From NCBI RefSeq assembly GCF_009914755.1, contig NC_060936.1: a stretch of 64,000 bases of DNA. One strand, written 5' to 3'. Position numbers and translations under genes: made by a program. This document shows positions 4,111 to 49,275 of this stretch, piece by piece; within the stretch, counting starts at the first letter, position 1; every line of letters starts with the position of its first letter. The notes beneath the pieces were generated by a model. The model did not search any database, was not told the origin of the DNA, and saw only the letters and a list, made by a program, of their open reading frames with translations. The DNA is from the human T2T-CHM13v2.0 reference genome, Homo sapiens.

Positions 4111-4244
4111 CCATATATATATTCCCTTTGAGAACAGGTGTCAGGATGATAACATCTTAATATAAAATTGTTCAATGCAGAAGCAATACTAGGTGTCAGC
4201 TAAGAGCTGAGGCTTCACAATATAACATTTCTTATAGGCGGTAT

Positions 4245-4400
4245 GAATGGGGTCAAATGAACTTCTCCATATCTCAGTTTCTTTATCTGCAAAGTGGGGC
4301 TAATAATAGCAGCTGTCTCTGAATTGGTATGAGAATTAGATGAGCTATTGTTGCCAAAGAATCCAACTATTATAGTAAATGCAATAATCATGTGCATTTA
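4245..4400 (+). mobile_element. MIR
   Basis: Core tctcagtttctttatctgcaaagtggggctaataatagc. Confidence 0.75.
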
Positions 4401-5455
4401 CTATGCATTCTAATTTTATTAAGAATAGTGACTAAGTGTCCAATGAGAAGGTGGTAGAGTGAGAACTGAAAAGCACTTGAAAGTCAATTGGAGTCTGTGT
4501 TTTAACTTACTAATGAAGTCCAGAAGCTATAAGATGAATTTTAAATATTTCTTAATCTGAGGTTGTTTTGTTTACTGGACTGAGCAAAGACAACTGGAAA
4601 ATGAGAAAAGGTAGAAATTAAAAATGCATTGCTAGTGTGGCAAACAAACAGCATCTGGGACCCTGACTGGTATTAGCCTGATTCAGGTGAGGTTATTGAA
4701 ACTCCACTGCACAGTTAATATTATTGTGTCCCCATACTGGCAAAGGTAGAATCATCACAGGGAAATTTACAAAACATAGGGAACGCTGAGGTTGGAAGAG
4801 CTTTACCACCATGACTCAATTGGCCCAGGTCAATGTGGCCTGAAGTCTGGGCCACCAAAATGGTGCAAAGGTTTCCTATGACTTCTGCTGGCCTTTTAGG
4901 GATGAATACTAATCAGTAAAATGTGGATAACCATAAAATTGTATGTTTGAATACTCAAAAATCTCTCATATACTATACTTAGTAACTTAAACATATATTT
5001 AATGAAAAAATTTCAGAAAAGAATGAGGCACAGATTTAGTGCTTCAGCTGGTAAAAGCGTATTAGTGTGTGCAAAGTATTTCACAAACTGCCATGCACAT
5101 TCTAACTATGTGATAATACCTATATGTTAAATATATATATTTGTATTATATATATTACATCTATATCTATATATCACAGGTCTTTCTGTTATTAAAAAGC
5201 AAAATATCATTTTTAAGAAGGAAAGATAGACTGATACTTCATAACATATCTGTGGTTTTGTTAATTATAAGTATATTTTCTTTGCTATTTAAAAAGATGT
5301 TTTGAGTCATCTCCCTAACACTTTAGCAAATTTTAAGGTAATAACCATTATAATTTTTGGCAAGAGAGTGATTTTATTTCATGGGATTTCCAGTTAATAT
5401 TGAAACATTCTATTTTATTGGATAGATAAATCTAAACAGCAGGTCAGGACTTTTA

Positions 5456-5710
5456 TTTTTGTGTTTTGTTTTTTTGAGACGGAGTTTCGCTCAGTTGCCC
5501 AGGCTGGAGTGCAGTGGCGAGATCTTGGCTCACTCCAACCTCCGTCTCCTGGTTCAAGCAATTCTCCTGCCTCAGCCTCCTGAGTAGATGGGACTACAGG
5601 TGCGTGCCACCGTGCCCAGCTAATTTTTGTATTTTTAGTAGAGATAGGGTTTTGCCACATTGGCCAGGCTGGTCTCAAACTCCTGACCTCAAGTGATCCA
5701 CCCACCTTGG
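5456..5710 (-). mobile_element. AluS, 5'-truncated by ~46 nt
   Basis: Antisense Alu ending at ...ccaccttgg; perfect TSD aggactttta (5446-5455 / 5711-5720). Confidence 0.95.
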
Positions 5711-8691
5711 AGGACTTTTAAATGTTTACAACTTCTCATCTAATCTCTCCAATGTTATACAAAGCAGCAGTCAGACCTTGGCCCCTTTTGCTGAGCATTT
5801 ACTTAAAGATTAAAAGATGAATAATTGCTACTCTCCCAGTCATGTGAATCACTAGTACCAAAGGAAGGAACAGTGGAAGTTTTTAATGAGTTGGTGCTGT
5901 TAATAAAAAAAGAGGTGGGTGGTAAATTATATATCCAAGCCCTTGAAAATTAACCTCCAGCACACGTTATTAGTTTCTTTCTTTTTTTTTTTTGCTTAGA
6001 GTTACAGTTTAATTTTTTGATAAAGCAGTTTATTGCCCTCTAAAAGATACTTAAGTTAGAAAAAAGTGTTGCTTATCCGAAAGGATCAATTTATCAATGG
6101 CCGTGTTGTGCTGTTTTTTTCATTTGCATTGTGAACCCCCTTTTAGGGTTCTTGTTAGAAACCTGTGTGGATTTATTTGTAGAGTAGCACACACTGAATT
6201 GGACTTAAGGATTAAATGAATTCCATGAACTAGAAGGATGACCTTGTAAACAGGAAAAGATTTCATTATATGTTTTCCTTGCTATCAGTGTAATAGAATT
6301 TGTGTTGTATGCCTGATGTTCAGACCTTTCTTTTTTATTTTTGCATGAATTATATTAAAAAAAGATTGAAATTTATCATCCAGACAGCAGACAATAAATT
6401 GGCTGAGTTCTAATTGTGAGGATTATAGCACTACATTTTATTTTCCCTCTGTCATGCTCAGCAAATAAATAATCCCGTTTACACTTCAGCCTCCAAAACA
6501 TGCTTGCATCTTTGGGCATGATGGGAATACCACGTGGGCACATAGTTTTATGGTCAGAATCCTAGTTATGTGGATTTTTATTTCTTGTCTATGTAGCCAA
6601 CTAGTGTAAAGTCTGGTATTTTGTGCAGGTATTAAAGCTCTGTTAGACTGAGAGAAGATAAAATAGAGGGGGGATGAAAGAATTTAACTGTCAGTTTCTG
6701 TTTCTGGTGGAAATACAGCCCACTGCTGCTGTATGCTAGAGAGGGAAGCTTTGGAAGCCTCAGAATGATCAAGCCAAATGGTAAAGTTCTAACAGTTTAC
6801 TGCTAATTGATTAGCTTTATGTATAAGGAGGTGCAATTATATGCTATTCCAGCCAACTCTCTTTTTAAAGTTTGTCTGACTTTTAAACCAGATTAATTCC
6901 GTCTGTTCAAAATATCCGCCCCCTGCCACCCCACCCCCGCTTCCGTACAAGGGCCTGATTCATTTGACCAAAGACCTAGGCCATGACAGCCAGCTGTGAC
7001 AATAGGGGGTAAATTAAAATAGCCTATGGCCAGGGTCAGACCATCTCTGAGAGATAATAGAAGAGTCCCTAAGGCCTGGTGAATGAAAGTGTTCAAATTC
7101 TATTGTGTACTCTGGTTAAGAACAATCTATAAAAAGGTAGCATTTAAAGTACATGAGAAGCAATAAATCATTTCCTCTTTCTACAAATTGGTTTAGAGAA
7201 AATCTCTAGGACTACAAAAGGATATTTTACTGTTTCTATGGCAGTTTAATATTAATAGGAAATACTTATTTGGTATATATTGTGTTGTTACATTTATATA
7301 ATTCTTCTGATATTTTTTGGAAAGCCTTTATCATATGATAGCTTCAATTTTGGAAGGTACATAGTATATGTATTTGTCACCAGTTTACATGTAACTAAAC
7401 TGAGGCTTGTAGTAAAGTTCAGAAGTGTGAGTTCCCAAAAATGATTAGTGGTAGAATCGAATTAGAAGCCAGCCCTAATTTCTATACTTTTGAATTGACA
7501 TCTATGATTCAGAAAAGCATGTAGTTGCTTAGGCAATGGGACAGGGATTGTATTACTCATTACTTCTGGGGCATTCTCAACTATGATAGGACTTTAGTCA
7601 TACCTCTACAATGTTGGGAGGAGAGATACATATTTAAAAAGCAATAACAGCAGTTCAAGGGAAAAAACATAATCTACTTGTTTTCTTAGGGGGGCATAAA
7701 TGGAAGGAATTATTTTTACAGAAAACACATCTATCCCACTTGTTTTGGGGATACTGTGTCTTATCTTTGAAATGGGCTTCTGCAAAGTCAATAGTGATGG
7801 CGAATTAGTAGTTGCATGATGCAGTGTTTTCTATATATCATAAATTGGTCAAGTATGATGATTTTTATTTCCATTCTTATTAGAAATGATCATTGTGAAT
7901 AATCTGCCCATTTTTCTCAGGAGTGTATGATTTAAAGTGTCATCATGTTTTTCATTCTCAAAATGGACTAATAAAACCTACCTCTGGAATGAATAAATAC
8001 CTTATTATAGATGTTGAAATTGTATAAATAGGAATGTTCATCCTCTCCTTGAGTGAAGATTTATTATTCCAAACACAAACATTCCCAATCGAAGGGTTTG
8101 AAAGTGTCCTTCAATCAACTCAAGATCATTTTGTATAGCCAGGGTTCAATCAAATACCACTTTTTAATCAGCTAATTACATGAAGCAGAACAGGTTTTCC
8201 TGCCAAACAAATGACTGGGGAGGAATAATTCTCTAAGTGCATATCCTTGAATATTTTTTCCCCAACAAAATAGTCCTGTCAGAAAACCAAGCTCACAAGG
8301 TTAAAGTGATACATGCTTTGGCCAGTTTCTAGGTTTGCTCTTAAACTTCAGTTGGAATTACATCTTGTGGGCACAGACTTGCTGGTTTTAATTTTGAAAT
8401 AGTTTATCATTATTTTAGGAAGAATATGGGAACATTTGAGTGTGTTTGGGAAAGAAAATTAGTTCCTCATTACCTCCCCTGTCCCTGCCAATAAATTCAT
8501 GAATCTTCATGTTTCTCATTCTGCGTTAACCTTTTCTCTCCATCATCCAGATATACTGCGGCTCAGGAAGCCAAGAACAGTCTCCTATTGGACATCATCA
8601 GTTCGTCATAGGGATAATTTCCTGGCCTTCTTAGATAAGAGAGTTCAACTTCCCTGTGGTCTTTTTCTAAAAGATCTTAACTTGTAATCCT

Positions 8692-8845
8692 ACAAAGTTA
8701 ATAGTACATATGTTTATCTCATGGAGGCCCAGGGAGCCAAAAAAGATTTGCACAAGCAGGTTAGTGTTAGAATGCAGAGACAGGAATGCAGGTCTTTTTT
8801 CCTGCCAGATCTTTGGATTTAAACTAGGAAACTCAAAAGTAATGC
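8692..8845 (+). repeat. Inverted duplication, copy 1 (154 bp; partner 13509-13661)
   Basis: Exact reverse complement of 13509-13661 except A6 vs A5 in gagccaaaaa(a)gatttg. Confidence 0.97.
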
Positions 8846-8846
8846 A

Positions 8847-8960
8847 GTTGCCAAGGTGAAATAATCTATTCATCTTCCTACTTACAGTGCAGTCTCAGTT
8901 ACAATAGGAAGTCATATCTCAGTTAGGCATCTATTACACTGAGCACACACAATAAATGTT
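8847..8960 (+). mobile_element. MIR 3' half (5' half at 13668-13810 on the opposite strand)
   Basis: gttgccaaggtgaaataat...cttacagtgc...agcacacacaataaatgtt resembles the MIR 3' end. Confidence 0.6.
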
Positions 8961-10233
8961 TTTAAAGCTTCAAGAGTTGAGAAAATAACATACTGTTCCA
9001 ATCCAGGGACTACTGGAAGATATGCTATAGCTTTTTTCCATCGCTTTCCATTGTTTATTGCCTACTTCTACTACTTAGGTTTTTTGTTGTTGTTGTTGTT
9101 GTTGTGTTTTTCTTTTTTTCTGACACCAGTAGTTTTCATCTGAGCATTAGGAAAATAGCAGAGGTTGATAAGATTTTCTCATGTCAACAACCTAGCATAT
9201 AGCTGGGAACCTGGGAACATACAATATTTGGGCACATGATATATTGATAAGGGGCTTGATATAATGCTTGTTCTTTTCTCTCTGCATCTGCATTTTGTAG
9301 GCAGGCCTCTGGATGTGGAGGCCACATGGCTATGCTGAAGTTAATGTGGCTGGGTCAGCATTTGTGGGACTTCAGTGAGTTTCAGAAGTCTTTTTCCACT
9401 AGCTAGCAAGAAGCCTGTTTGGATGTTGATAGCCCAAATGGGGCTTGGCCCTAAAAGTTAGGGGAAAAGGCAGAGTTCATTTCAGGGAGGCACAGAGAAG
9501 ATCTCATTCTGAAAAGCAATGATAGTGATTACCATGGCAGGTCAGGGATGTCAGCCACAAATCCTAAAGTGTTAACATGGAACACCACTGTAAAGCTTAT
9601 CAACTTGCAGTGCTCCTAAAAATGGAATAAGACTATAAATACATGCCCTAAGGTTCACGTGGCAGTCTACAGACACAAGTAGGAAATTGCTCTGAAATCT
9701 CAGATTTCATACTAGAAATGAATGTAGATTCTGTACTCCATAATTTTTGCTATATTATCCAAACATAAATAAAACAAAACAAAAACATCTAGAAACCAGG
9801 ACCTTATTTATACTGGGGTATTATTCTTGTGTTCTCTGGTATACCTCTCTGGATCAGTTCCAGAGAGTTTTCACATCTCAGTTTTAGTCATAACTCTACT
9901 GAAGAAGAAAAAAAACCTAAATAACTTTTCAAAAGGATCATACAAACAAGCTCTACAGTGTTTGGTTCATATCCAAGGCAAAGAATCAGTGTGGTATAAA
10001 ACAGGAAAAATATCCAGCGACAATTTAAATGTTTTCCAAGCCTGCTATTAGGTTTTAATGGAATTTTTCCTCTGCTGGTGAAACAAATAAAAACAAAAAG
10101 TAAATAAGTGAAACATTTTCTGTTGACAAGAGAAAAATACTGTGTAGTAGGAAGACTCTTAGGAGGCACGTTCTGGTACTGGCTGAACTTCATATGAACG
10201 TGGGACCCTAGGCTGACCTGTGATGTCTCTAGC

Positions 10234-10325
10234 TTGGTGACTATGTAATTTATTGTCTCTTTGTGGAGGTGCTATTCAAACCTGGAGTGTCCTGGTGTCC
10301 CGGGCAAATTGGGCACCCTGTCTTC
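10234..10325. mobile_element. MER94-like hAT-Blackjack MITE
   Basis: ggtgactatgtaatttattgtc ... tgtcccgggcaaattgggcaccctg. Confidence 0.6.
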
Positions 10326-11569
10326 CATTCTTTTTATTTGTTGGCGAATGAGAAGTTTACATTAGGTTAGATGTTTTTAAGCATTCTTTTGTCAGCAAAC
10401 TCAAAATTAAGACAAAGTTCAGTGTGAAGCATGGACGGGGGCAGGATTCCAGTTCCCCACCCTCTCTTCCACACAAACCCCACCCAAGGACTCTGAGGGA
10501 TCCTTGGCATGCAGTTTAAAAATTATGACATTCCATGGTTTATTCCACCCATTATTAGCCTTCAGTTGGAATCACATGCCACATCTTCATGTACAGATGA
10601 TGTTTAGGTAAATGCAAATCCTAACAGAAGAAAGAAGGATGCAATCTCATCTAAGATAAAAGCATCTTCTTATTCAGCTTTGCTTGTTTATGCCTTTCCT
10701 TTCTTAATACATATTTTGTCTATTTGGAGGATGAGTTTGAGTCAGACTTCATTTCTTCTATCCTTTTTAATGCCTTTTATTTGAAAGACTTGAACTTGAA
10801 GAATATAATTTTAGGGGTGGGCCCATATAGAGAGAGCATTTCAAGACAAATATCACATCAGACATTCTTCTGGGTGCCCAAGAAAGCAACTGTGTTGTTA
10901 CCTTACCCTCCATAGTCACCAAGGTGACTATTCCAGGGCTGAGACCTTAAGCAATATGCAGTGTAAAAATGAGGCTATATTCAAGAAGGTATATGCAGGT
11001 CCTCAAGAAGCAGCCCTGACTGGCATTTCCCCAGTGTGAATAATCAGTTTTGATTGTGCCATTTATTCTGTCCCCTTGTTTCTCTGCTGTATTCTTTCCC
11101 ATTCCTAGTCTCTTTATTGCAGATATCTCATCCATCTTCCTGCACCTGATTTGGGAGTGTTGTTCCTAACACCACTCTAACCACTGTGTCTGTATAGTAC
11201 TCTCAGTTAAGCTGCCTCTCCTCTACACATATAACATTCAGGCAGCAGGAAGCCAAGTCCCTTGCAGAGGGAGTGGAATGAACTTGCCACCCCTTCCCAT
11301 GTCACTGATGTACTTGCAGACACACTGCCAAGAGAGATTGTAATATTCCGTGCACACTGGACATCAGCTGGAACAGGAGGGAGGGGAAACAGCTTTTATG
11401 ATAGCTCCTATGTTAGTGCTTTTCCTCAATATTGGCTGGTGCAGGCTTTTGAAATTTTGTGTCTCACACCTCACTGGGGATTATCTGGAGGCCCCTTATT
11501 ATGGATGCTATCAAATTTGTAGGGTTGGTGGTCTTAGACCTGACCCAAGGCACGTAGAAATGCTTCTTT

Positions 11570-11980
11570 TTTTAAATAACATTTACTGGTTTACTATAAG
11601 GGATATTACGAAGGATATAGAAGAAATGCATAGGACAAGGCATAGGGGAAACTTCCATGCCCTCCATGGATGTGCCACCATCCAGGAACCACCATGTGCT
11701 CAGCTATCTGGAAGCTCCCTGAACCCTATTCTCTTGGGTTTTATGGAAGCTTCATGACTCAGCATTCCTTCCTCTAGGGTATGGAGCCAGATCCTCTCTG
11801 GAATGAGGGTCTTATGACCCACAATCAGAAAGGTAAGGAAGATTAGAGCCCTGCCTTGGGACAGGTGAAAGGGAGGCAGGAGAAAGTCAGAGCAGCTCTG
11901 TTTCCTGAGGCTGCCCCTGAGGCTTAACACATCCACCATTATAACAAAAGACTGTAACAAGGGCTATGGAAGTTATGTTC
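11570..11980 (-). mobile_element. MER21A-like ERV LTR fragment
   Basis: ggtcttatgacccacaatcagaaagg...gcccctgaggcttaacacatccaccattataacaaaagactgtaacaagggctatgg. Confidence 0.8.
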
Positions 11981-12248
11981 TGTGGCTTTCTTCTGTTTAG
12001 TTATAAGACAGCCTTGGGCCTAATGACATTCCTGTGTAGATCTGCACATCTTCAGAATTCAGCTGCTTCTTGGCTGATGGTACTTCCCCTTCTGGTTCAT
12101 TTAGTTACCTGGACTATTTCAGGCACAATTATCTAAGAATGAGTGGTTAGAAGACAGTATCTATCTCCAGCTGTTTGATATACAGTAGGAAGCATACAGG
12201 TTGCAGCAGGTAACAAGCATTAGCTGCCATGGCATACTAGAGGGCTGC

Positions 12249-12671
12249 TGTATTAGTCCATTCTGGCACTGCTATAAAGAAATACCTGAGGCTGGGTAAT
12301 TTATGAAGAAAGAGATTTAATTGGCTCACGATTCTGCAGGCTGTGCAGAAAGCATGATTCTGGCATCTGCTTGGCTTCTGGGGAGGCCTCAGGAAACTTA
12401 CATCATGGCCGAAGGCAAAGGGAGAGCCAGCACTTCACATGGCTGGAGCAGACGGAAGGGGGAGGAGGAGGTGCTACACACTTTCAGACAACCAGATCTC
12501 GTGAGAACTTACTCACTATCATGAGAACAGCACCAAGGGGATGGTGCTGAATCATTCATGAAGGATCCACCTCCATGATCCAATCACCTCCCAGCAGGCC
12601 CCAACTCCAACACTAGGTAGATTACAATTCGACTTGAGGTTTGGGCAGGGACACAGATCCAAACCTTATCT
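12249..12671 (-). mobile_element. MSTA solo LTR
   Basis: tgtattagtccattctggcactgctataaagaaatacctgag...ggcatctgcttggcttctggggaggcctcagg...gggacacagatccaaacc. Confidence 0.9.
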
Positions 12672-12814
12672 CCTGTGGTTCCTTGGAGAGGCTTGGAGTC
12701 TCCCTGAGTTACTGCCATCCCTCAAATATAGCTCACCAACCATCATTTATTCAGTGCCTACTATGTGCCATGTGTTTTCCCCACACTTGCCTATTTTCTA
12801 TATTAATAAGGTAA

Positions 12815-13268
12815 TATGTTAGTATCCTATTGCTGCTGTAACAAATCCTACCAATGTAGTAGCTTAGAACAAGACAAATTTATTATCTTACAGTTCTGGA
12901 AGTCAAAAGTTCTAAAGTCAAGGTGAGGTGTAAGCAGGGATGCATTCTTTCCAAAGGTCCCAGGTTCTAGAGGCTACCTGCACTCTTTGGCTTGTGGCTC
13001 CTTCTTCCATCTTTAAAACCAGCAGTGTGCCATCTTCAGATCTCTCTGTCTGACCTCTGCATTTGTCATTCCATCCTCTTCTCTTTCTTTACCTTATGAG
13101 GACCCTTGCAATTACATTGAGTCCATCTGGAATAATCCAGGATAATAATCCTATCACAAGATACTTAATGACATCTTCAAAGTCTCTTTTGACACATAGA
13201 GTAACAGTCATAGGTTCCAGAGATTATGATATGGGCCTCTTTGGGGATGGGGGCCATTCTGTCTACCG
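12815..13268 (-). mobile_element. MLT1 (D-like) LTR
   Basis: cctattgctgctgtaacaaat...tttattatcttacagttctggaagtc...ataatccaggataat...ggccattctgtctacc. Confidence 0.85.
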
Positions 13269-13299
13269 TCGATGGTAATAACTGTCACCACCAGAATGA

Positions 13300-13545
13300 T
13301 AGCAATAGCCAACATGTATTGTGTTCATGTTATACAGGCAAAGCATTGTCTTATTGTAATCTTCACAACAACTGTAAGGAATAGGTAGCAGTATCCTTAT
13401 TTTACAGTTGAAGGCACTGAGAGGCAAGTAACTTGGGAGAGGTTAAGCAACTTGCCTAAAGTCACGCAGCTAGTTAGCTGCAGAAAAAGGATTCAAATCC
13501 AATGCATAGCATTACTTTTGAGTTTCCTAGTTTAAATCCAAAGAT
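13300..13545 (-). mobile_element. MIR (its end appears to run into the duplicated segment)
   Basis: cttcacaacaac...ttttacagttgaaggcactgag...aagtcacgcagctagttag...ggattcaaatcc. Confidence 0.8.
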
Positions 13546-13661
13546 CTGGCAGGAAAAAAGACCTGCATTCCTGTCTCTGCATTCTAACACTAACCTGCTT
13601 GTGCAAATCTTTTTGGCTCCCTGGGCCTCCATGAGATAAACATATGTACTATTAACTTTGT
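13509..13661 (-). repeat. Inverted duplication, copy 2 (153 bp; partner 8692-8845)
   Basis: Base-by-base reverse-complement match to 8692-8845. Confidence 0.97.
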
Positions 13662-13667
13662 TGCTAT

Positions 13668-13810
13668 GCAACCCTACAATTATTACTTCTGTAGTACAGG
13701 TAGGCTTAAGTGAAAAGAAGGCTCTTTCTCCAGATCACACAGGCACTCAGTAAGGGAGTTGATATTCAAGTTGAATTTCTTGGACTCTGAAGCCTCTGCC
13801 TTAAACGCTG
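13668..13810 (-). mobile_element. MIR 5' half (3' half at 8847-8960)
   Basis: Reverse complement reads gtttaaggcagaggcttcagagtc...ctgtgtgatctggagaaag...taataattgtagggttgc and stops mid-element. Confidence 0.65.
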
Positions 13811-16313
13811 ATCTACGTGTGCTGAGGATATCAGAGGATTGTTCCACCTCTGATTTTGCTTTCAGCTGTGGTTTCTCTGACCTTTGTTTTGCATCTTTGT
13901 TTTGTTTCCCTTTGTGGATAGTGCTGGTCTATCGGTGAAGTCAGCTGGAGTAGGTTGCCGCTTTGGTCATGATGTCACAGGCTGAGGGTTAATGGGAGAA
14001 GCCCTTTGGCTTAGAGCAGCTGAGCTTGCTTGTTTGTGGCTGCTGCTGTGCTCTGCACAAATGGAGTTCGTTCTTGGCGTGGTTTATTGTAGGTTGAGGG
14101 GACCACTAGCTGCCTCATTTGAACTAAAGACCTTGACTTGCATTGAATTTTAAACATGGGCCCTGGGATAGAAAAGCTAATGTTTTATGGAACCAGCTAC
14201 AATTTAGTTACCATAACAACTTGGTAACCCTTATTCTGTCTTGGCTTGCTGCCTCTGAGTGTGATGTACAGCAGTCATTCTGGCCAGCTGAAATGGGCTC
14301 TCACCTTATTCTTGTTAGGCTTATTGATAAATAGCTTGGTTTCGTGATACACATTTCAAAGTCATCACCTTTTTTTATGCTGCTGACCTTCCCTTAAGCT
14401 GCAGGTTGTATAAGGAGAAACTGCAGGAGTAATGCTGTGCTGGTTTTCTGTTCCTGAGATATTTTACCATGAAATTGTATGCCTGTGTGTGTGTTGAGAG
14501 AAAGGGGTGGTGAGGAGGGAAATAGGTAGATGAATGAATTTGTGTTTGTGGAGCAGAGTATCATAGTAGTGTATTTCTGTCATCTGCAAAAGAAAAAAAA
14601 ACCTTTTGAAATAACAGTAACAGTAATTTAATCTTGTTCTTTAAACAGTGAATTTGACATACTCTGAAAAAGTTGTGGGCAATACAATTGAAGACGGGAT
14701 TCCTTTCTTTCATTCAAGCATTTTGTTATTCACTAAACTATTTAAATGTGAAACTTCCTTGATAAGTAACCTGAAGTAGAGTTTAAATTTTGTATATGGG
14801 AAAATAGTGAGGGGGCTGGTGGGAATTTGAGGGAAAACTTAGATCAGCTTTTTTTAAAAAAAAATTCCAGTAGGTAGAAGAGTGTTCTGTTCTGTTTCAT
14901 AAAGGGTTAGTAGGTATTTTGGTTGTGGGGAGGCAAAGGTAGGGTGTTGATGCCTTACGTATTCCTCCTTGGGAGATACAGATCTATATTTGTACTACAT
15001 GCTATGAAAAGGTCAGCAGTGGAGAAACCTATTTAACTGTTTCTTTCTGCATTTGGTCCCAGAGCCCCGTTTTCAGATAGGCAACTGTGAACATCTCATA
15101 GAACAATGTTTGGGAAGTGGTGCTTTAGAGGTGTAATAATAAAGAGGAAACCAAAGTCAGGATTTCACCTTCTATTCCTAACCCTCTCTGTAGTGATTTG
15201 GCTATAGAACAGATTCAGTACTTTTATTCTGTATTAAGAACTGATGCATTTTCTGTACTTCCCTCCCCAAATGTTAAAAAGGTCATTTCTTGTGGTTTGT
15301 GTTAGCCAAGACTCCATCTATGCATTGATTTGAGCAATTTGTATAACATTTTATTCTGCTTTTTCTCCTTATCTAAATATGACAGTATATTGCTAAGGGA
15401 CATTATAAAGTCACCTTTGGAGAATTCTAAAGGAAAACAGTGACCACCATTTTTATAGGATAGCTAGAGTTCAGTCTTCCAGTGGATAAAATGTGCATTC
15501 ACTGAAATCTGTGTTATCTTTATTCTAATTTGTTCACTTTAAAAAGTAATAATAAACCCCAAGCTGTTTTTGTACACTGGAGATAATTTAGACTAAGCTA
15601 CATACACCTTTCTTTTTTTAACAATGAAAAAACTCTCATCTAAAGAAGTGAGAAACCCAATGTCACCAAGTGAGAATACTGGATGTAGCATCTGAATCTC
15701 TGACTCCCCAAGAATGCATTTCCTTGTTTTGTCATTGGTAATCTTAAGAAGTTGAATTAAGCAAAAATATTTAGGAAAGGGATATTAAACCCCTCTTGAC
15801 AGTATCCCTCCTTTAAGAGATATGGCTCTCTAATACTTTGCCTGTTGTTTAAGATACAGACCTCTTATTAAGGAGGGAATTTTTGGGATTACTTTATTCA
15901 TGTATGCCTATCCATGATGTTATCCAGTGTTAAATTATTTTCTTCCAATACAAAAAAGCTGGAGGACAGCATATTTGAGTAATGAGGTGGGCAGGAACCA
16001 GGTCATTGACTACTGTTTACTACATATATGTTCTGACATTTATTTCTGGCCCAGTTAGCTTGCTGAATACTTAATCCTTTGTGTGCTAGTGGCCAGTATA
16101 TTGTGTGTGATTTAGCAGAGTCAGTAGCTTTTCTAATTCTGAACAGCCTTTGTGTACTGTGGTGTCTGTCCATGGTTAATAGTATTCAAATAACAATGCC
16201 ACTTGATGATTTTGAGGCAATTGTTAATCTCTGTCTGAAGCTTCCTCAGGTCCCATTTGCTAGAATTTTGTTGTCTTTCTCTTTTTTCCCTTCTCTTTTC
16301 TTTAAAAAATTTT

Positions 16314-16614
16314 GGCTGGGTGAAGTGGCTCATGCCTGTAATCCCAGCACTTTGGGAGGCTGTGGTGGGTGGATCACGAGGTCAAGAGATGGAGACCATT
16401 CCGGCCAACATGGTGAAACCCCGTCTCTACTAAAAATACAAAAATTAGCTGGGCGTGATGGCACGTGCCTGTAATCCCAGCTACTTGGGAGGCTGAGGTA
16501 GGAGAATCGCTGGAACCAGGGAGTCAGAGGTTGCACTGAGCCAAGATCTCTCCACTGTACTCCAGCCTGGCAATAGAGTGAGACTCTGTCTCAAAAAAAA
16601 AAAAAAAAAAAAAA
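16314..16614 (+). mobile_element. AluSc-like
   Basis: ggatcacgaggtcaagagatggagacc diagnostic region; long poly(A) tail. Confidence 0.95.
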
Positions 16615-17789
16615 TTCTACAAGAACATTGTATGAAATTTTGACATAACTGATTTTTGCATTTATGTTTAGATTAGAAAAATGTATGTCCTAAGCAAGGG
16701 AGTTAGATTCATCCAGCACTGTCTACATTATTACCCAAAGGAATTGTATGCTAGGAAAACTTGACGATGGAGGACCCAAATTTATAGGTTCATTTAATAT
16801 TTTCAAGCAATATTCTTTCCTGCTGATATAAAATTAGAGTTAGTGGCAGTCAACAACAGATAATACCTCAAAGTGGTATAACATGTTTTAAAATATTTTG
16901 GTCTTATACACACCGCAGGCAAAAGAAATAGCTGCTCGTGTGTATTACTGCTGAAATTCTGACTTTGTTTATTTTCTATAAACATAATAACTAGTTTCAT
17001 GTGAGTACATAATTTCTAGGAAGAAATTAGAAAGAGTTGGAGTAAAGTGGAACATACATAAGACATATTTACCTACTGCAAATATACTTCCTGGTATACA
17101 CTAACTCAATTTTTATTTTTAGGAAGGAAATCAGATAAAGACAATGTGTTAAATCCTTCTTGGCTTCAGAAATGTTAGTAGTTTGCATATTTTCTTAGGT
17201 GCTGTTAGCACGATTACTCATTTTCTGGCATGATGTGGTGAAAGCATGTCTTTATGAAGATTAAAATGAAAAGGAAAAGAGATATAAGGATTTGGCTTTT
17301 TGAAAATCATCTCCCAAGGCAGGGCAGACAAAGAAAGAAATGATCTATCTTGCCTCAATAAAGCTATAAAAATAAGGCATGCTTCAGGCATAAATAGGAT
17401 CAGAACCTAATGTGAATCAGATATAATAAAGACAAAAAGAAATGTGTTGACACTGTCGTTTCACATGCTTTTTTTGCTGCCCCGATTAGCTGATGAGCTA
17501 AAGACTACATATGTCATTTACTACTTGGTTAGTGAGTATGAGTTGGCTTCTCCATTCTGGTCAACTCTATCACTGATGGAATTGAGCTACACTAGACTGT
17601 GGTGAAATTAACTGAGTTTAAAGCATGCCCTTGGGGTGGGTGTCCAGCCTTTTCTGTTCAGTCCCCCACACTCTCACCAACTGACTTCCACAGAATGAGC
17701 CATGTGCTTTGGAAGTGTGAAGAATACATGTCTACTTTTAGGCTGCCATTTCTTGACAGGTGGTAATTGCTAGGAGGTGAGGGTTTATG

Positions 17790-18270: not shown

Positions 18271-21200
18271 TGAAGGATGGTAATGAGAATTAAGTGAGAT
18301 ATTAGATCTTAAGTGCTTAACACAGTATACGGCACCTGGCACATTGTAAGCACAAAAGAAATGGAACATGTAATTCTGCTGTTACCCATAACGGCAATAA
18401 GAAACATCTTGGAGATTCCTGTCTGTAATAACAGTAACTCAGGACTTCACCTCTATGTAGCCCCATCTCCAAATACACATGAAACCTTACAGATTTCATA
18501 CTCTTGCATTTTTCTTTCTGTGGAGACTTTTCTTTATATGATGGCCTGACAATAATATTGAAGTACTTTATAGTGCTAATAACTTAATTTTTACATGCCC
18601 TTACCCAGTGACCTGCTACATTTTAAAAATGCACTCAGATGTGGACCACATCTGTTTACCTCTATGCTATCATTAAGAGAGAAAGTCCCAGCCTCCAATT
18701 CAAATTTGATTATTTGCCCAGGGTATTATTCTGTAAGTATTTCCTTTCTCTTTGTGTCTTTAGAGCTGTATTTTAATCCTTGTTTCAGACACAGTATTTC
18801 TTCCAATTTAGTAAGTTATGAAATGAAGCTATTCATAACTCTCCAGTAATACCAGCAAACAGTTCCTTGATAGTATGCTAAAACTGGGGCTGAGAAGTTT
18901 GAGAGTCTGTTGGTTTTATGCCCTGCCTTATACTCTACCATTTATAGACCAGTCTTGATTGTCTTATGCTGGTAGTGTCTGTTGTTTCAGATATGTCAAA
19001 GAGTCATTGGTGATTCATTAAACAAGCACTGAGCTAGGATTCAGAAGTCAATAAGATATTTTTTGCCCTTAAAACTTATAAAGCACAACTGTGGTTTCCA
19101 AAGTGAAAGGAAAAACAAATGCAAGTACAGATTTTTGTGGGAGTAATTGTCTCTTAGGGGATGGCAAAATTGGGGATGGTACAAAATAAGCGTCTGAGTA
19201 AGGATGCTTTCCAAGATCACTTTCAAGGTCAGTATGGTATTTTATGTGCTGCTGAAATTGACATTGCATCATGGTGTATTTCTGTCTGGTGATTGAGTTA
19301 ATCTTCATTGCAAGCATAGATAATTTTCCTTCAGGTATAGTCGTTTATTTATAGAAAGCTGTTAATTTAATTACTTTTAGTTAGTATCATTTCTCTTTGA
19401 TGCTAATAAACAAATTTTTCCACATTTTAAAATCTCTCAAATCTTTACAATTAATAATGCATCTTGGTTAATTGGCACTCTTCTCTTTTCCTCCCTAGTA
19501 AAATATGTTATTCCTTTATCATTTTTTTAATCTGTTGTTTCCTATTTTCTTGTTATAACATGATAGTGTATTTTACAATTGGTGGCAATGAATATTCAAT
19601 TAATACAGTAGTGTACATTACACTCAAAATTCCTGACTTATGCTAGTTTTTAAACTATATTATATTATGATTTCTATATTTATATGTTGTCTAATTTTGG
19701 CTAGTATACTCTGAACCACTTGAAACATGGGACTATGTATTTTATCTTTATATTCCACCATGGAACTTGCATATAGTAAGCACTTAAAGGTAGAATGAAT
19801 GGTAGAATTTACAGCTATTAGATACCCAATGCTTGCTTGTTGATTAAAGGCTCATAATAAATAGAAAATCACTTACAGGAAGTAGTTTCTGATCACATCA
19901 TCTGTGCCTGATGATGAGTCCATGCATCTAGGCATTGGAATAGTACTCTTCAGCTTTTGAATAGTTATTACATACCTTTCTGATCCATCTAGTGCTTAAT
20001 CTATTAAGTTTTCACAGAATTGTGCTGTCTCTGAAAATTCTTAGATCATATTTTACTATATGACTTATACATTAAGTATATATACATATATACATTATAT
20101 AATCTTTATGAATGAATGTTTATAATAGCTTGGGTTTTTTATAGTTCAAGTATTTTAGAGTGTTCAAATGTGTCACTATTTCTTTAGTTTATTGCTGTGG
20201 ATTTCTTTATTTTATTGCTGTATGCCTAGTTCCTAGAACAGTGTTTAGCACATAGTAGGTATTCAGGTGTTGAATGAATTAGAAATTGTAACACACTCTG
20301 TCTTCTTGGGGAGAGGAAAAATATCAGTATTTCAAAAATCTTTAGATTTGGTATATTGTTTGCAGTTTGATTCAGCTTTGATTTCCAAGTTGCATAAGTT
20401 TATCAGCTCTTAGGTTTGAAAGAGAGCTTAAAGCTATCTAGTCCAGCTTCCCTACAACAGAATAGCTAATGAATAGGTATCATATACACATCAGTAAGTA
20501 GAAACGACCAGTCACATAGCTGCGAAACACCACTGGGGAAAGGCTGATTCCTTAAGCACTTCCCCCCACTTAGCCCACCACTTAAGGCATTGTTTATAAA
20601 GGAACTACAGAAAATTATATTAAAGTGATTTGTGATGTCAGCTCAAAGGGCATAGAAGTGGCTTGTTGATTTGAGAGATCAAAACCTATTTTTCTATTGT
20701 GTTTATTCAGTCTGTTCTATCTTCTCTGCCAGTGGAAAATGGCCTAGGGATTAGAAGGAAAGAGGAATAAAGTATTTGAGCTGTGTTGGTGCCATATTGA
20801 AGGTTTTGAGTATTTTCTTGGTTCATTTGCTTAGTCCTGTTTTGATTAAAACCATATTTTGAGAAAAAGGAAACAAATGTTGGTAACTTAAATTTTGGAT
20901 GACCATTTGGCATTGGCAGCAAGCAACTCAGTTGCTAATTAGTCCTTAGAGTGTTTCCGAGTAGTGCATGTCATTATTCTATATGTGGTTAACATTTCCA
21001 GTGATCTCATAACATAGTCTATCTGGTCCAAAAGGCCCTGAAGTATTATGGAGTCTAAAGTGAGACTATAACCATCCTTCTAGGTATTCTTTCTAGACAA
21101 TTCTTACACACTAATTTATGAAGCTCTTCCTATCTTTAAGTCATGGTAATTTTTCTAAATAAAAATTTTCATTTTAAGTTGATATCTATTTCCCTAAACC

Positions 21201-27800: not shown

Positions 27801-28944
27801 TGTGTATTCTCAGATTTGTAATCACAACTTTAGGTAAGTGAAATCATATATTTCCTAAGAGTGACATTCATATATCCAGTACACTTTTTATAAAAGTAAT
27901 GAGCATTTTCAATTACATTTACTTATAATAAAAGGTAGTTTCTCAAAACTTTTAATAATACAATTGTTTAGTATTTTATTAAATCACATATATTCAAAAG
28001 TAAGGGGAGGAAAACCCCATGTTTACTGTAATGAACTTGTTAGTATTTTCACAATCATTACTGAATTTTTACCTCTTTTCTCCAACTGACTGAAAGGGCA
28101 TTACAAAATGCTACTGGCAGTAACTACGGTAATCTCCTTGTGTGTGAGAGAAAAATTCATTAAGACCATAATAAAGCAGTCACTTCTACATATTCCTCAT
28201 AAAGATCTGAAATTTTTTCCCTTCATTTCCCTCTTTTTGAAAGAATGATCCAACATTAATGTGCACGTGTTTGTCATTATATTCTTCAAAACATCATATC
28301 CAACTATAGGCAGGAATAATCCACTGTAAAAGTGTTGGAAGGCAGGAAAGGAGGCAGAAAAGAAGAGGGGACAGAGGGAAGGATGGATGAGTGTTTGAGC
28401 ATTTCCTATCTCTTTGCCTGCACACTGCTTGAGTTCTGAATTAATGATTTAGTGCCTAGAAGAGGAAGAGGCACAGCAATACTTAGCAGTTTATTAAAAA
28501 GACTTCTCCCTGCCATACTTCTTTTTATTTGAATGGCAAGCCTGCCGCAGGGGCCTGCTGCTACTGAAATATAGTGGAAGTTGGTGATATGGCCAGCACA
28601 GCAGAGTCTGAACTGGGTTGTGAGTGCTATTTCATGTGGGATGCTAAGCAGCTGTCAGATAGGGAACTACTTTGCACCACTTATGGGCTAGAGTTAAAGC
28701 AGCAGGCTGGAGGGGAAAAACTTGGGCCAGTCAGCTAGATTTGGAGGCTCCTTCTGAAAGGGTATTTATAAAGTCTGCAGTTATGTGTTACTTGTTATTT
28801 TCACTCAGTTCACCTTTCCTTGTCTGTTTCCATTATTCTTATTAGATTAAATTCCTATTCAGAGGCACTTGCTCTAGCAATCACATACTTTATAAAAACA
28901 AGTTTGGGGAAAATACATTATGAAGGAAGGGGAGTAATACTGCT

Positions 28945-29135
28945 CATTTTCCATGTGCTAGGTATTCTGGTAGGTGTTTGCATACGTTCTTGCTTTAATA
29001 CTGAGAGCAATGCCAGGAAGTGTTATAACTCCCATTTTACTTATTAGGAGGCTGAGCCAAAGAAAGATTTAAATACCTTCAAAGTGGCAGAGACGGGTTT
29101 TCCACTCAACATCCCCTGACACCAAAGCCTATGCT
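28945..29135 (-). mobile_element. MIR
   Basis: catgtgctaggtattctg...cccattttacttattaggaggctgag. Confidence 0.6.
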
Positions 29136-29399: not shown

Positions 29400-29620
29400 G
29401 CAGATTGTGGTAAGAAACACACTCTGGCATCATATTTGGGGTTTGATTTCAGGTCCCACTCTGTATTAACTCTTCAATTTTGAGTCAACAATTTAAGTCT
29501 TTGAACTAGTTCCCTCATTTGTTCAGAAGTGATAACATCTGCTTCATAGTGTAGTCGTGAGGATTGAGTAAGGTAATGGATGCAACAGACCTGGTGTGGA
29601 GTGGGTACTGCTCGTCTTCA
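29400..29620 (+). mobile_element. MIR
   Basis: tagttccctcatttgtt...catagtgtagtcgtgaggattgagtaaggtaatggatg. Confidence 0.65.
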
Positions 29621-39439: not shown

Positions 39440-39645
39440 CAGGAGTAGTGTAGACTTTAAATTCAGAATGTTGGGTTCCAATTCTGGCTCTGTATAACCT
39501 TGTTAAGTAACTTAACCTCTCTGTGCCTCATTTTCTTGATGAAGTGGGAATAAAGTAATCACTTACTGTAAGAATTAAGTAAGCTGACATTCACAAAATA
39601 CAAAAAACAGTACCCAACATGAAAAAGTGCTCAAGAACTATTAGA
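39440..39645 (+). mobile_element. MIR
   Basis: gggttccaattctggctctg...aagtaacttaacctctctgtgcctcattttc. Confidence 0.8.
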
Positions 39646-42924: not shown

Positions 42925-43160
42925 TGTAGCATAATGTCAGGTACAGAGTTACATACTTTACCTGGATTATCTCATTTCTTCCTCATAATGGCCTTAAGAA
43001 GTAGGTACTATTATCTTCATTTTACATGAGGCAGCTGAGACTCAGGAAGTTAAGTGACTGGCTGAAGGTCGCGTAGATACCTGTTCAAGGTCACATGCTG
43101 GAGCATCCGTAAGAACATGCATAGCTTGATCCAGATAACCCAGGCTTTTACCTATTGCAG
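42925..43160 (-). mobile_element. MIR
   Basis: gtaggtactattatcttcattttacatgaggcagctgagactcagg. Confidence 0.8.
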
Positions 43161-43879: not shown

Positions 43880-44110
43880 TTAATGGGTAATCTTGACAGT
43901 TTACAATGCCTTTCCAGGTGTATTATTTTAGTTATTGCGATTCTGTGGGGTAGGCAGGAAAGCTATTATTCTCATTTAATAGGTGAAGAAATGGAGATTC
44001 TGAGAGGGTTAATTGACTTGCCCAGGGTCACAACCACTAAGTGATAAAGCTGTGACTTTTGAAATACTATCTTTTATGTCCTAATCCAGGGGATTTTCTT
44101 GCTCTCCTAT
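43880..44110 (-). mobile_element. MIR
   Basis: ggtgaagaaatggagattctgagagggttaattgacttgcccagggtcaca. Confidence 0.8.
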
Positions 44111-44839
44111 GTTCTTCATAATGTATGAGACAGTTCATGTACAGGTGGCAGCTGTTTCATCAGACAACTGTTTCTGCAGCCTCTTTATTATTTTGTAGCA
44201 TTTTGATACCTCTCATCATTCTCTGTGTGATTGGAGGTCTGGGATATGAGAACTTCAAATTTCCTGTCAAGGATGTCCTAAACCTATTTTCTCTAGAGCT
44301 GAATGGATAGAGAATGGCAAATTCTTATGCAGAATCTTTGTTTGGAATTTTCCGTCAAATGATTTTTAGTGGGGAGAGAGCTCTCTGTCTGAAAGGGAGA
44401 GAGAGGTTTAATTTTGGCTTTTAACAGAGCAGAGGACTCAGCACATGATTAAACTATGTTTTGGGCTTAGTGAAAGAAACAAAATTACTTGAATAAATAA
44501 AAAGCTCCTATTTCTGCCTTTGTGGAATTTAGGGACTGATTGGAGTCTGATGGATTCTCATTCTGGAGATTCTCTATCCCCACCGGTTTGTTAGTTCTCT
44601 GTGACCAAGGCACCTGCCTGTTTTCTTCATTGTTGTGCCCTCAGCTCTTAGAAGGCACTCACGTAATTGAGGGATAAATAAAATAATGTTGACTTTATTT
44701 CTCTTGGATCAATACACTGAATCATTAGGTTAGCATGGGAAGGTGCTTAAAGCAAGACTTTGGAGTCAGATGTAACTTGGCTTGGCTCCTGAATTTGGCT
44801 CTAATTATTACCTTACCCTTTTGAGTCTCAGTTTTCTTA

Positions 44840-45253
<414 letters not shown>

Positions 45254-49109: not shown

Positions 49110-49275
49110 AAATCCATTTTTATCCAGCTAAAATGCCTAGCGGATAAAGAGACTTAGTTCTACCTCTGGCTTGAATCTCCCTCTGTGACTTTGGGTGAGT
49201 CACATTTCCTGTCTGGGGCTTTGTTTCTCCATCCATAAATTGAGGGAATGGACTAGATAATTTCTAAAGTTCTAA
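49110..49275 (+). mobile_element. MIR3/MIRc
   Basis: ctgtgactttgggtgagtcac...tttctccatccataaattgagggaatggactagataatttctaaag. Confidence 0.75.

What the first reader, a model, noticed from the sequence alone, without database searches (positions are those of the whole stretch)
8692..13810. Recent ~4.7-kb inversion shown by a 153-bp inverted duplication and a MIR split across both breakpoints
Seen: 8692-8845 and 13509-13661 are reverse complements of essentially unique DNA, with zero substitutions and one homopolymer indel. Seen: a MIR 3' half lies on + just inside the left copy (8847-8960). A MIR 5' half lies on - just outside the right copy (13668-13810). Re-inverting 8846-13508 joins them through a shared GCAAC (8847-8851 as GTTGC; 13668-13672) into a continuous MIR, ...taataattgtagggttgc|caaggtgaaataat..., close to consensus catagggttgttgtgaggattaaatgagataat. 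A second MIR (13300-) appears to run on into the duplicated segment. Inference: the ancestral order A-D-B..C-E became A-D-C'..B'-D'-E, the footprint of staggered-break or template-switch inversions. Near identity implies a young (possibly hominine or polymorphic) event, or ongoing conversion. Caveat: the three LTRs inside would then have been sense to the inferred + strand host gene, which is the disfavoured orientation.
Basis: partly seen in the sequence, partly recalled or inferred. Interest (0 to 1): 0.88.

Follow-up and report, generated by a model that had tools for sequence, protein, structure and literature searches.

The report
Young 153-bp inverted duplication, possible inversion
Two perfect, oppositely oriented copies of a 153-base unique sequence lie 4.7 kb apart in a human gene desert; they mark one recent DNA-repair or replication accident of a well-known kind, and this genome alone cannot show whether the DNA between them was also flipped.

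Summary
8692-8845 and 13509-13661 are reverse complements with 0 substitutions and one A6/A5 indel. The whole CHM13 genome holds only these two copies.

The inversion reading is only partly supported. A MIR fragment does start within 7 nt of the right copy: 13669-13822, + strand, positions 96-268 of a home-made MIR profile, with 0 of 3000 controls scoring as well. The proposed other half is not detectable on its own (490 of 3000 controls as good). Joined to the right half, 8848-8912 continues the alignment exactly at positions 95|96. This beats most random flanks: 37/1500, 27-46 of 800, and 15/1500 by HMM at one offset.

The claim that the second MIR runs into the duplicate fails. That MIR stops 6-7 nt before the duplicate, which fits the simple staggered-break model poorly.

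Published surveys report that inverted duplications under 1 kb placed within 5 kb of the source outnumber true inversions (PMC4617611). I give an inversion with breakpoint duplication 0.48 and an inverted templated insertion without inversion 0.42.

Zero substitutions bound the age only to about 10-20 My or less. This is an ordinary kind of event. Outgroup and pangenome alignments would settle it.

The parts
8692..8845 (+). Left copy (D) of the inverted duplicate, 154 nt, with an A6 run
   Evidence: exact reverse complement of 13509-13661 except one base; only two copies in the genome; no CpG
13509..13661 (-). Right copy (D') of the inverted duplicate, 153 nt, with an A5 run
   Evidence: not MIR-like (score 90, 2905 of 3000 controls as good)
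8846..13508 (.). 4663-nt spacer between the arms. It is either flipped in the event or untouched. It contains the RefSeq enhancer feature 11713-12912 (hub note).
   Evidence: distance between arms; orientation relative to the ancestor not testable here
8846..8847 (+). Two bases (AG) between the left copy and the start of the candidate MIR piece. They are filler if the inversion reading is right.
   Evidence: best join offset is 8848
8848..8912 (-). Candidate 5' piece of the split MIR (profile positions 32-95), 41/62 identical to the profile consensus. Weak: seen only when anchored to the right piece.
   Evidence: not significant alone
13313..13501 (+). Second, well-preserved MIR (profile 45-218). 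It ends 6-7 nt before the right copy, and its tail is absent from every neighbouring flank.
   Evidence: E 8e-31; score 786; no flank extends it
13503..13511 (+). 9-mer TGCATAGCA straddling the spacer/D' junction. It is the reverse complement of 13662-13670.
   Evidence: background 105 of 58101 junction pairs, 0.18%
13662..13670 (+). 9-mer TGCTATGCA just after D'. Its first 7 nt lie between D' and the MIR piece. It could be templated filler or a pre-existing small palindrome. 13660-13672 is a 5-bp-stem hairpin.
   Evidence: read from the sequence
13669..13822 (+). 3' two-thirds of a MIR (profile 96-268), cut off within 7 nt of the right copy; 98/152 identical to the consensus
   Evidence: score 317, 0 of 3000 controls; nhmmer 13724-13807, E 3.6e-07

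Best explanation
One non-homologous rearrangement, either break-and-repair or replication template switching, flipped the segment now at 8846-13661. It also left a second copy of its 153-bp end at 8692-8845. In current structural-variant vocabulary this is an inversion with a breakpoint duplication (dupINV/INVdup type). Before the event the order was A-D-B..C-E, and one breakpoint cut a MIR element between profile positions 95 and 96. After it the order is A-D-C'..B'-D'-E.

What is shown: the duplicate, its uniqueness, the cut MIR at the right junction, and short extra bases at the junctions. What is inferred: that the spacer changed orientation. The evidence is the weak 5' MIR piece at the left junction.

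The plain staggered-nick version is the less likely variant, because the spacer/D' junction also looks disturbed. I favour a version with a third junction or a small loss next to D, as in multi-step template switching. The single homopolymer difference between the copies could be a slip made during the copying. That idea rests on my recall that break-induced synthesis is error-prone, not on a tool result.
For: The inverted duplicate of unique DNA is perfect except for one homopolymer base.

The right-hand MIR is truncated at profile position 96 within 7 nt of the duplicate (0 of 3000 controls).

Of the candidate former neighbours tested, only the reverse complement of 8848-8912 extends that MIR leftwards. 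The extension starts exactly at position 95. The gain is 105 against controls of 45 +/- 25, with 37 of 1500 as good. The present neighbour D' gains 41, which is control level.

The result holds under four scoring schemes: 27, 46, 33 and 36 of 800 controls as good. An HMM forward score rises from 21.9 bits (right half alone) to 26.1 bits, and the alignment then crosses the join. Controls score 21.2 +/- 1.2, and 15 of 1500 are as good at that single offset.

The two pieces have equal identity to the consensus, 41/62 and 98/152.

Non-templated or templated bases at junctions and small indels are usual for non-homologous human inversions. In one study, 18 of 21 had them (preprint 10.1101/501981, passage). 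Inverted duplicates at inversion breakpoints were found in 17 of 29 Drosophila inversions (PMC1885836, abstract and passages).
Against: The left MIR piece is not detectable on its own: 490 of 3000 controls are as good, and nhmmer finds no hit. The join test is only p about 0.03-0.06. The HMM gain appears at 1 of 8 offsets tried, and the controls were not offset-scanned.

The junction that should be ancestral and undisturbed is spacer/D' at 13508|13509. It lies 6-7 nt from the abrupt end of a well-preserved MIR, whose tail is not in D'. That looks like a novel junction. Some MIR copies do end near there naturally, though: 5 of 46 good copies end at profile positions 222-225.

In 229 verified human 'inversion' calls, 54% were inverted duplications of under 1 kb placed within 5 kb of the source, and 20% were simple inversions (PMC4617611). 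The prior therefore favours the rival.

No outgroup or second human haplotype could be examined.
Confidence: 0.48

Rival explanations
1. Inverted local templated duplication without inversion. During replication or repair, synthesis switched to the opposite strand about 4.7 kb upstream and copied 8845 back to 8692. It then returned, leaving D' inserted between two MIR fragments. The adjoining MIR ends were probably lost, in the manner of a dispersed duplication with a deletion at the insertion site. Under this reading the spacer has always had its present orientation, and 8692-8912 is undisturbed ancestral sequence.
For: The geometry matches the commonest inversion-signature variant in the 1000 Genomes survey. 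There, 54% of 229 verified sites were inverted duplications, 'in nearly all cases' under 1 kb and within 5 kb of the other copy. In the same survey, 871 complex deletions carried an insertion templated from within 10 kb (PMC4617611, passages).

Both sides of D' abut truncated MIRs, ending at profile 218 on the left and starting at 96 on the right. A single replace-and-insert event explains both truncations.

The 9-nt inverted match flanking D' has a background frequency of 0.18%. It fits fold-back or template-switch synthesis, or a small palindromic target site.

The second MIR's tail is found in none of the flanks tested, as expected if it was deleted.
Against: It leaves the MIR-like continuation at 8848-8912 as chance. 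That piece starts 2 nt from the left copy at exactly the complementary profile position, which has p about 0.03-0.06 or 15/1500 at the best offset. There is no microhomology at either D' junction (read).
Confidence: 0.42
2. Two steps rather than one. First an inverted copy of D was inserted into an intact MIR. Later, homologous exchange between the two 153-bp arms flipped the spacer, and it may still toggle. The end product is letter for letter the same as in the one-step inversion. Its probability is counted within the best explanation, not in addition to it.
For: It combines the common event (inverted duplication) with the MIR split. Inverted repeats are known to drive recurrent human inversions (PMC6748972 and preprint 10.1101/501981, passages).
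Against: The arms are only 153 bp. In the genotyped human set the repeats mediating such inversions were 654 bp to 24.2 kb. It needs two events. It also leaves the MIR end next to 13508|13509 unexplained.
Confidence: 0.05
3. An old, larger inverted segmental duplication in which a 153-bp tract was recently homogenised by gene conversion.
For: Perfect identity is what a fresh conversion tract would show.
Against: There is no residual similarity beyond either end of the arms. The neighbouring 30 nt are unrelated. The repeat finder, which extends while identity stays above about 65%, stops exactly at the arm ends.
Confidence: 0.03
4. Assembly artefact, or two chance members of a repeat family.
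For: None found.
Against: Only two copies exist in 3.1 Gb. The whole structure spans under 5 kb, which is shorter than the long reads used for this assembly (my knowledge, not tested here).
Confidence: 0.02

Closest known systems
'Inverted Dup' class of the 1000 Genomes structural-variant map (Sudmant et al. 2015, PMC4617611; passages read)
   Same: A duplicated stretch under 1 kb (here 153 bp) lies in inverted orientation within 5 kb of the other copy (here 4663 nt between the arms). It is not associated with retrotransposition, and a replication-error origin is proposed.
   Different: In that class the spacer keeps its orientation. Here a weak split-MIR signal suggests the spacer may have been flipped. 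Here the derived state is in the reference-quality assembly itself, and its population frequency is unknown.
CNV-flanked inversions dupINV/INVdup (Collins et al. 2017, PMC5338099, passages; gnomAD-SV preprint 10.1101/578674, passages)
   Same: An inverted segment with a duplication at one breakpoint, seen as one complex event.
   Different: Those calls came from libraries with about 5-kb resolution or from short reads, and mostly concern larger flanking duplications. Membership needs the ancestral orientation, which I could not test.
Staggered-break inversions with inverted breakpoint duplications in Drosophila (Ranz et al. 2007, PMC1885836; abstract and passages)
   Same: Inverted duplicates of ancestrally unique sequence bracket the inverted segment. 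No repeat mediates the event.
   Different: The model predicts that one junction of each copy is undisturbed ancestral sequence. Here the spacer/D' junction sits at an abrupt MIR end, and 2 and 7 extra bases sit at the other junctions. This fits multi-step template switching better than simple fill-in and ligation.
Human non-homologous polymorphic inversions (Giner-Delgado et al. 2019, PMC6748972 and preprint 10.1101/501981; passages)
   Same: Kilobase-scale inversions without long inverted repeats in the ancestor. 18 of 21 carry small insertions or deletions in the derived allele, attributed to FoSTeS/MMBIR.
   Different: Whether this locus is one of the catalogued inversions could not be checked.

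Membership tests
Inversion with inverted breakpoint duplication (staggered-break / dupINV) | Inverted duplicate of otherwise unique sequence at the two ends of the segment | tested here: met
Inversion with inverted breakpoint duplication (staggered-break / dupINV) | An element cut by the breakpoint is restored when the segment is turned back | tested here: inconclusive
   The pieces meet at profile positions 95|96 with equal identity. However, 37/1500 and 27-46 of 800 random flanks do as well, and the left piece is not significant alone.
Inversion with inverted breakpoint duplication (staggered-break / dupINV) | One junction of each copy is undisturbed ancestral sequence (8691|8692 and 13508|13509) | tested here: inconclusive
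   No element spans either junction. A MIR ends abruptly 6-7 nt before 13509, which speaks against continuity, but 5 of 46 good MIR copies end near there anyway.
Inversion with inverted breakpoint duplication (staggered-break / dupINV) | Outgroups carry one copy and the opposite orientation | not testable with these tools
   No primate genome or second human haplotype is held. The own-genome search states that it has no relatives.
Inverted dispersed duplication ('Inverted Dup', Sudmant 2015) | Duplicated stretch under 1 kb, inverted, within 5 kb of the source | tested here: met
   153 bp, 4663 nt between the arms; class definition from PMC4617611
Inverted dispersed duplication ('Inverted Dup', Sudmant 2015) | Spacer orientation unchanged; the source copy sits in undisturbed sequence on both sides | tested here: inconclusive
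   Nothing spans 8845|8846. The MIR-like piece starting at 8848 argues weakly against continuity. The orientation itself is not testable.
NAHR inversion between pre-existing inverted repeats | Inverted repeats long enough to recombine and older than the inversion (diverged arms) | tested here: not met
   The arms are 153 bp with 0 substitutions. Repeats mediating genotyped human inversions were 654 bp to 24.2 kb.
MIR (mammalian-wide interspersed repeat) | Significant alignment to a MIR profile (home-made from 66 hits in other genomic loci and the rest of the window) | tested here: met
   Met for 13669-13822 (0 of 3000 controls) and 13313-13501 (E 8e-31). For 8848-8912 the result is inconclusive. 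No curated MIR model (Dfam/Repbase) was available.

The most novel reading that the evidence does not exclude
The event is a human-lineage-specific, or still polymorphic, inversion-plus-duplication made by multi-step template switching. It turned round a 4.7-kb block carrying an annotated enhancer (11713-12912). It also created a perfect 153-bp inverted repeat that could now let the block toggle by homologous exchange.
Probability: 0.15. Interest if true: 0.4.

Novelty: new member of a known kind. Interest (0 to 1): 0.22.

Why it matters
It matters modestly. Whichever reading is right, this is one more instance of a class of small complex rearrangements that is already well catalogued in humans and flies. 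It lies in a gene desert with no annotated gene in 64 kb.

Its use is as a clean, sequence-resolved example. The junctions carry 2 and 7 extra bases, a 9-nt fold-back-like match, and a one-base homopolymer slip between the copies. All of these are footprints of error-prone copying.

If the block proves human-specific or polymorphic, it would be a natural test of whether flipping an enhancer-bearing segment has any effect. It would also test whether a 153-bp perfect inverted repeat is enough for recurrent inversion.

Tried and rejected
1. Single-sequence nhmmer with the three MIR candidates found only self-hits and one other MIR. This was too insensitive, so I built a profile.

2. The first iterative profile shrank from 207 to 146 positions and was discarded. 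I rebuilt it from extended, MAFFT-aligned copies.

3. nhmmer on short test segments returned no hits for either tests or most controls, so it could not discriminate. I replaced it with consensus alignment against matched controls.

4. nhmmer local alignment of joined sequences did not extend across the join.

5. Whole-genome searches with each MIR 'half' alone found only themselves. Searches with two other MIR 5' halves, meant to enlarge the profile, also found only themselves.

6. Searches for paralogues spanning any junction found none. Window 8200-9400 gave only a (TTG)n simple repeat at about 9080-9110. Window 12900-14300 gave a roughly 300-nt repeat family at 12960-13267, with only 40 of 730 candidates scored. 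Window 13823-15400 is unique.

7. The test of the spacer end as the MIR's former neighbour was invalid. The aligner simply switched to the second MIR's own alignment. By profile coordinates (it ends at 218, and 95 is needed) it cannot be the continuation.

8. I considered that the masked stretches 12243-12614 and 16255-16626, both 372 nt, were two LTRs of one provirus that could report orientation. This is rejected: 16255-16626 is Alu-like and the two share no repeat.

9. The gene-conversion rival is rejected because the flanks are unrelated.

10. The literature gave nothing for the nearest gene name (0 papers). Main texts of the inversion catalogues hold no chr12 coordinates. Their supplements are closed, so I cannot say whether this locus is already listed.


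Full report
WHAT IS THERE.
The repeat finder reports two inverted arms, 8740-8845/13509-13614 and 8692-8743/13610-13661, each 100% complementary. A global alignment joins them into one 154/153-nt match with no substitution and a single missing A in an A6 run. Similarity stops dead at both ends, and the 30 nt beyond each end are unrelated. A search of the whole 3.1-Gb assembly in which the window lies found exactly two places, the two arms (2 candidates, 2 scored). This is a duplicate of unique DNA and not two members of a repeat family. It cannot be chance.

TESTING THE MIR ARGUMENT.
No curated repeat library is available here. I built a MIR profile from the genome itself in three steps:
- The MIR at about 13300-13500 was used to fetch 29 other loci.
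- Their copies were extended, aligned and turned into a 271-position HMM.
- The HMM was refined on those loci plus the window with 8000-14500 excluded, giving 66 hits.

The profile finds 20 MIR-like hits in the window at E<=1.

The second MIR is strong: E 8e-31, and 13313-13501 on profile positions 45-218 by consensus alignment.

The piece right of the duplicate is also a real MIR. It covers 13669-13822 on profile positions 96-268, with score 317 and 0 of 3000 random window segments as good. It therefore begins 7 nt after the duplicate ends.

The proposed partner at 8847-8960 is a different matter:
- Alone it scores 134, and 490 of 3000 controls do as well.
- nhmmer does not see it.
- It has no detectable relatives in the genome.

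THE JOIN TEST.
I anchored the right piece and asked how much each candidate left neighbour adds, allowing 11 start offsets for the test and for the controls alike.

- The hypothesised neighbour adds 105, best starting at 8848. The alignment runs from position 95 down to 32.
- Random flanks add 45 +/- 25, and 37 of 1500 reach 105.
- The present neighbour D' adds 41.
- Three other scoring schemes give 46, 33 and 36 of 800, and the original scheme repeated gives 27 of 800.
- An HMM forward score rises to 26.1 bits at the 8848|13669 join, and the alignment then crosses the join (profile 73-253).
- HMM controls give 21.2 +/- 1.2 bits, and 15 of 1500 reach 26.1. The other seven offsets tried show no gain, and these controls were not offset-scanned.
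- Identity to the consensus is the same on both sides, 41/62 and 98/152.

The support is p about 0.03-0.06, which I translate into a Bayes factor of roughly 5-30. It is not proof.

WHAT SPEAKS AGAINST THE SIMPLE MODEL.
In the staggered-break model, the junction between the spacer and the right copy (13508|13509) is old, undisturbed sequence. It does not:
- Extension into D' gains 34-40 against about 30 +/- 17 for random flanks (318 of 1000; 112 of 400). This MIR is otherwise well preserved (score 786 over 174 positions).
- Its missing tail is also absent from the other three flanks tested.
- It ends 6-7 nt before the duplicate.

An abrupt repeat end next to a junction is what a novel junction looks like. 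Against this, 5 of 46 good MIR copies end naturally at profile 222-225, so the argument is moderate. I put it at a factor of about 4-5.

The nine bases straddling that junction (13503-13511) are also the exact reverse complement of the nine bases that follow the duplicate (13662-13670). Only 105 of 58101 comparable junction pairs in the window show such a match. This points to templated or fold-back synthesis, or to a small palindromic target. It fits replication-type template switching better than simple fill-in and ligation.

THE RIVAL AND THE PRIORS.
D' may simply be an inverted copy inserted 4.7 kb from its source, with the spacer never flipped.

In the 1000 Genomes survey, 229 'inversion' sites were verified with long reads or PCR. 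Only 20% were simple inversions. 54% were inverted duplications, 'in nearly all cases' under 1 kb and within 5 kb of the other copy. In addition, 871 complex deletions carried an insert templated from within 10 kb (PMC4617611, passages read). The present case has precisely that geometry.

A replace-and-insert event would also explain why both sides of D' abut truncated MIRs. It would not explain the MIR-like piece at 8848.

On the other side:
- Inversions with small extra insertions or deletions are the rule among human non-homologous inversions: 18 of 21 (preprint 10.1101/501981), and 23 of 51 inversions without repeats carry adjacent indels over 50 bp (preprint 10.1101/2021.12.20.472354).
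- Duplication-flanked inversions are a named class (PMC5338099).
- Inverted breakpoint duplicates accompany 17 of 29 Drosophila inversions (PMC1885836).

Combining a prior of roughly 1:4 to 1:12 against the inversion with the two internal lines of evidence gives odds close to even. I settle on 0.48 for 'spacer flipped'. Within that I prefer a three-junction or small-loss version, and I allow about 0.05 for insertion followed by exchange between the arms. I give 0.42 to 'inverted insertion only'. Gene conversion in an older duplication gets about 0.03 (no residual flank similarity). An artefact gets about 0.02.

AGE.
The duplicate has no CpG. Zero substitutions in 153 bp over two lineages gives a 95% upper bound of 19.6 My at 0.5e-9 per site per year, or 9.8 My at 1e-9. 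The probability of seeing none after 6.5 My is still 0.14-0.37. 'Hominine or polymorphic' is possible but not implied.

SURROUNDINGS.
- The spacer holds the RefSeq enhancer feature 11713-12912 (hub note).
- The flanks next to the junctions are unique in the genome, apart from a (TTG)n run near 9080-9110 and a roughly 300-nt repeat family at 12960-13267.
- Nothing detectable spans a junction.

WHAT COULD NOT BE DONE.
- No ape, monkey or second human sequence is reachable with these tools.
- Supplementary tables, where inversion catalogues keep their coordinates, are closed. The main texts searched hold no chr12 entry, and the nearest gene name occurs in no held paper. I therefore cannot say whether the locus is already catalogued.

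VERDICT.
This is a real, young, unique inverted duplicate produced by one non-homologous event of a well-known kind. Whether it is an inversion or an inverted insertion is unresolved, at about even odds. Interest is low to moderate. A single alignment to the ape T2T assemblies would decide it.

Noticed in passing
window 13503-13511 and 13662-13670 (also 13660-13672): The 9 nt straddling the left end of the right copy are the exact reverse complement of the 9 nt following its right end. The background frequency for comparable junction pairs is 0.18%. 13660-13672 forms a 5-bp-stem, 3-nt-loop hairpin. With the 153-bp copy removed, the site would read as a 6-bp-stem palindrome.
   Followed up: partly
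window 8738-8743 vs 13610-13614: The only difference between the copies is one base in a homopolymer (A6 against A5). It could be a slip made while the copy was synthesised rather than a later mutation.
   Followed up: no
window 12960-13267: A roughly 300-nt interspersed repeat inside the spacer, with many genomic relatives at 69-79% identity (730 first-look candidates, 40 scored). No library was available to name the family.
   Followed up: no
window 5448-5731 and 16255-16626: Two Alu-like elements in opposite orientation (arms 82-88% complementary) bracket the whole region at about 10.7 kb. They form a second, older inverted-repeat pair around the locus.
   Followed up: no
window 9080-9110: A (TTG)n simple repeat about 230 nt inside the spacer. 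It accounted for all the non-self genome hits of 8200-9400.
   Followed up: yes
window 4231-4364, 18275-18361, 28923-29135, 29412-29608, 39453-39626, 42934-43077, 43922-44056, 44731-44910, 49155-49272: Further MIR copies found with the home-made profile, with 20 MIR-like hits in the window at E<=1. This shows the profile works and that MIRs cover about 5% of the window.
   Followed up: yes
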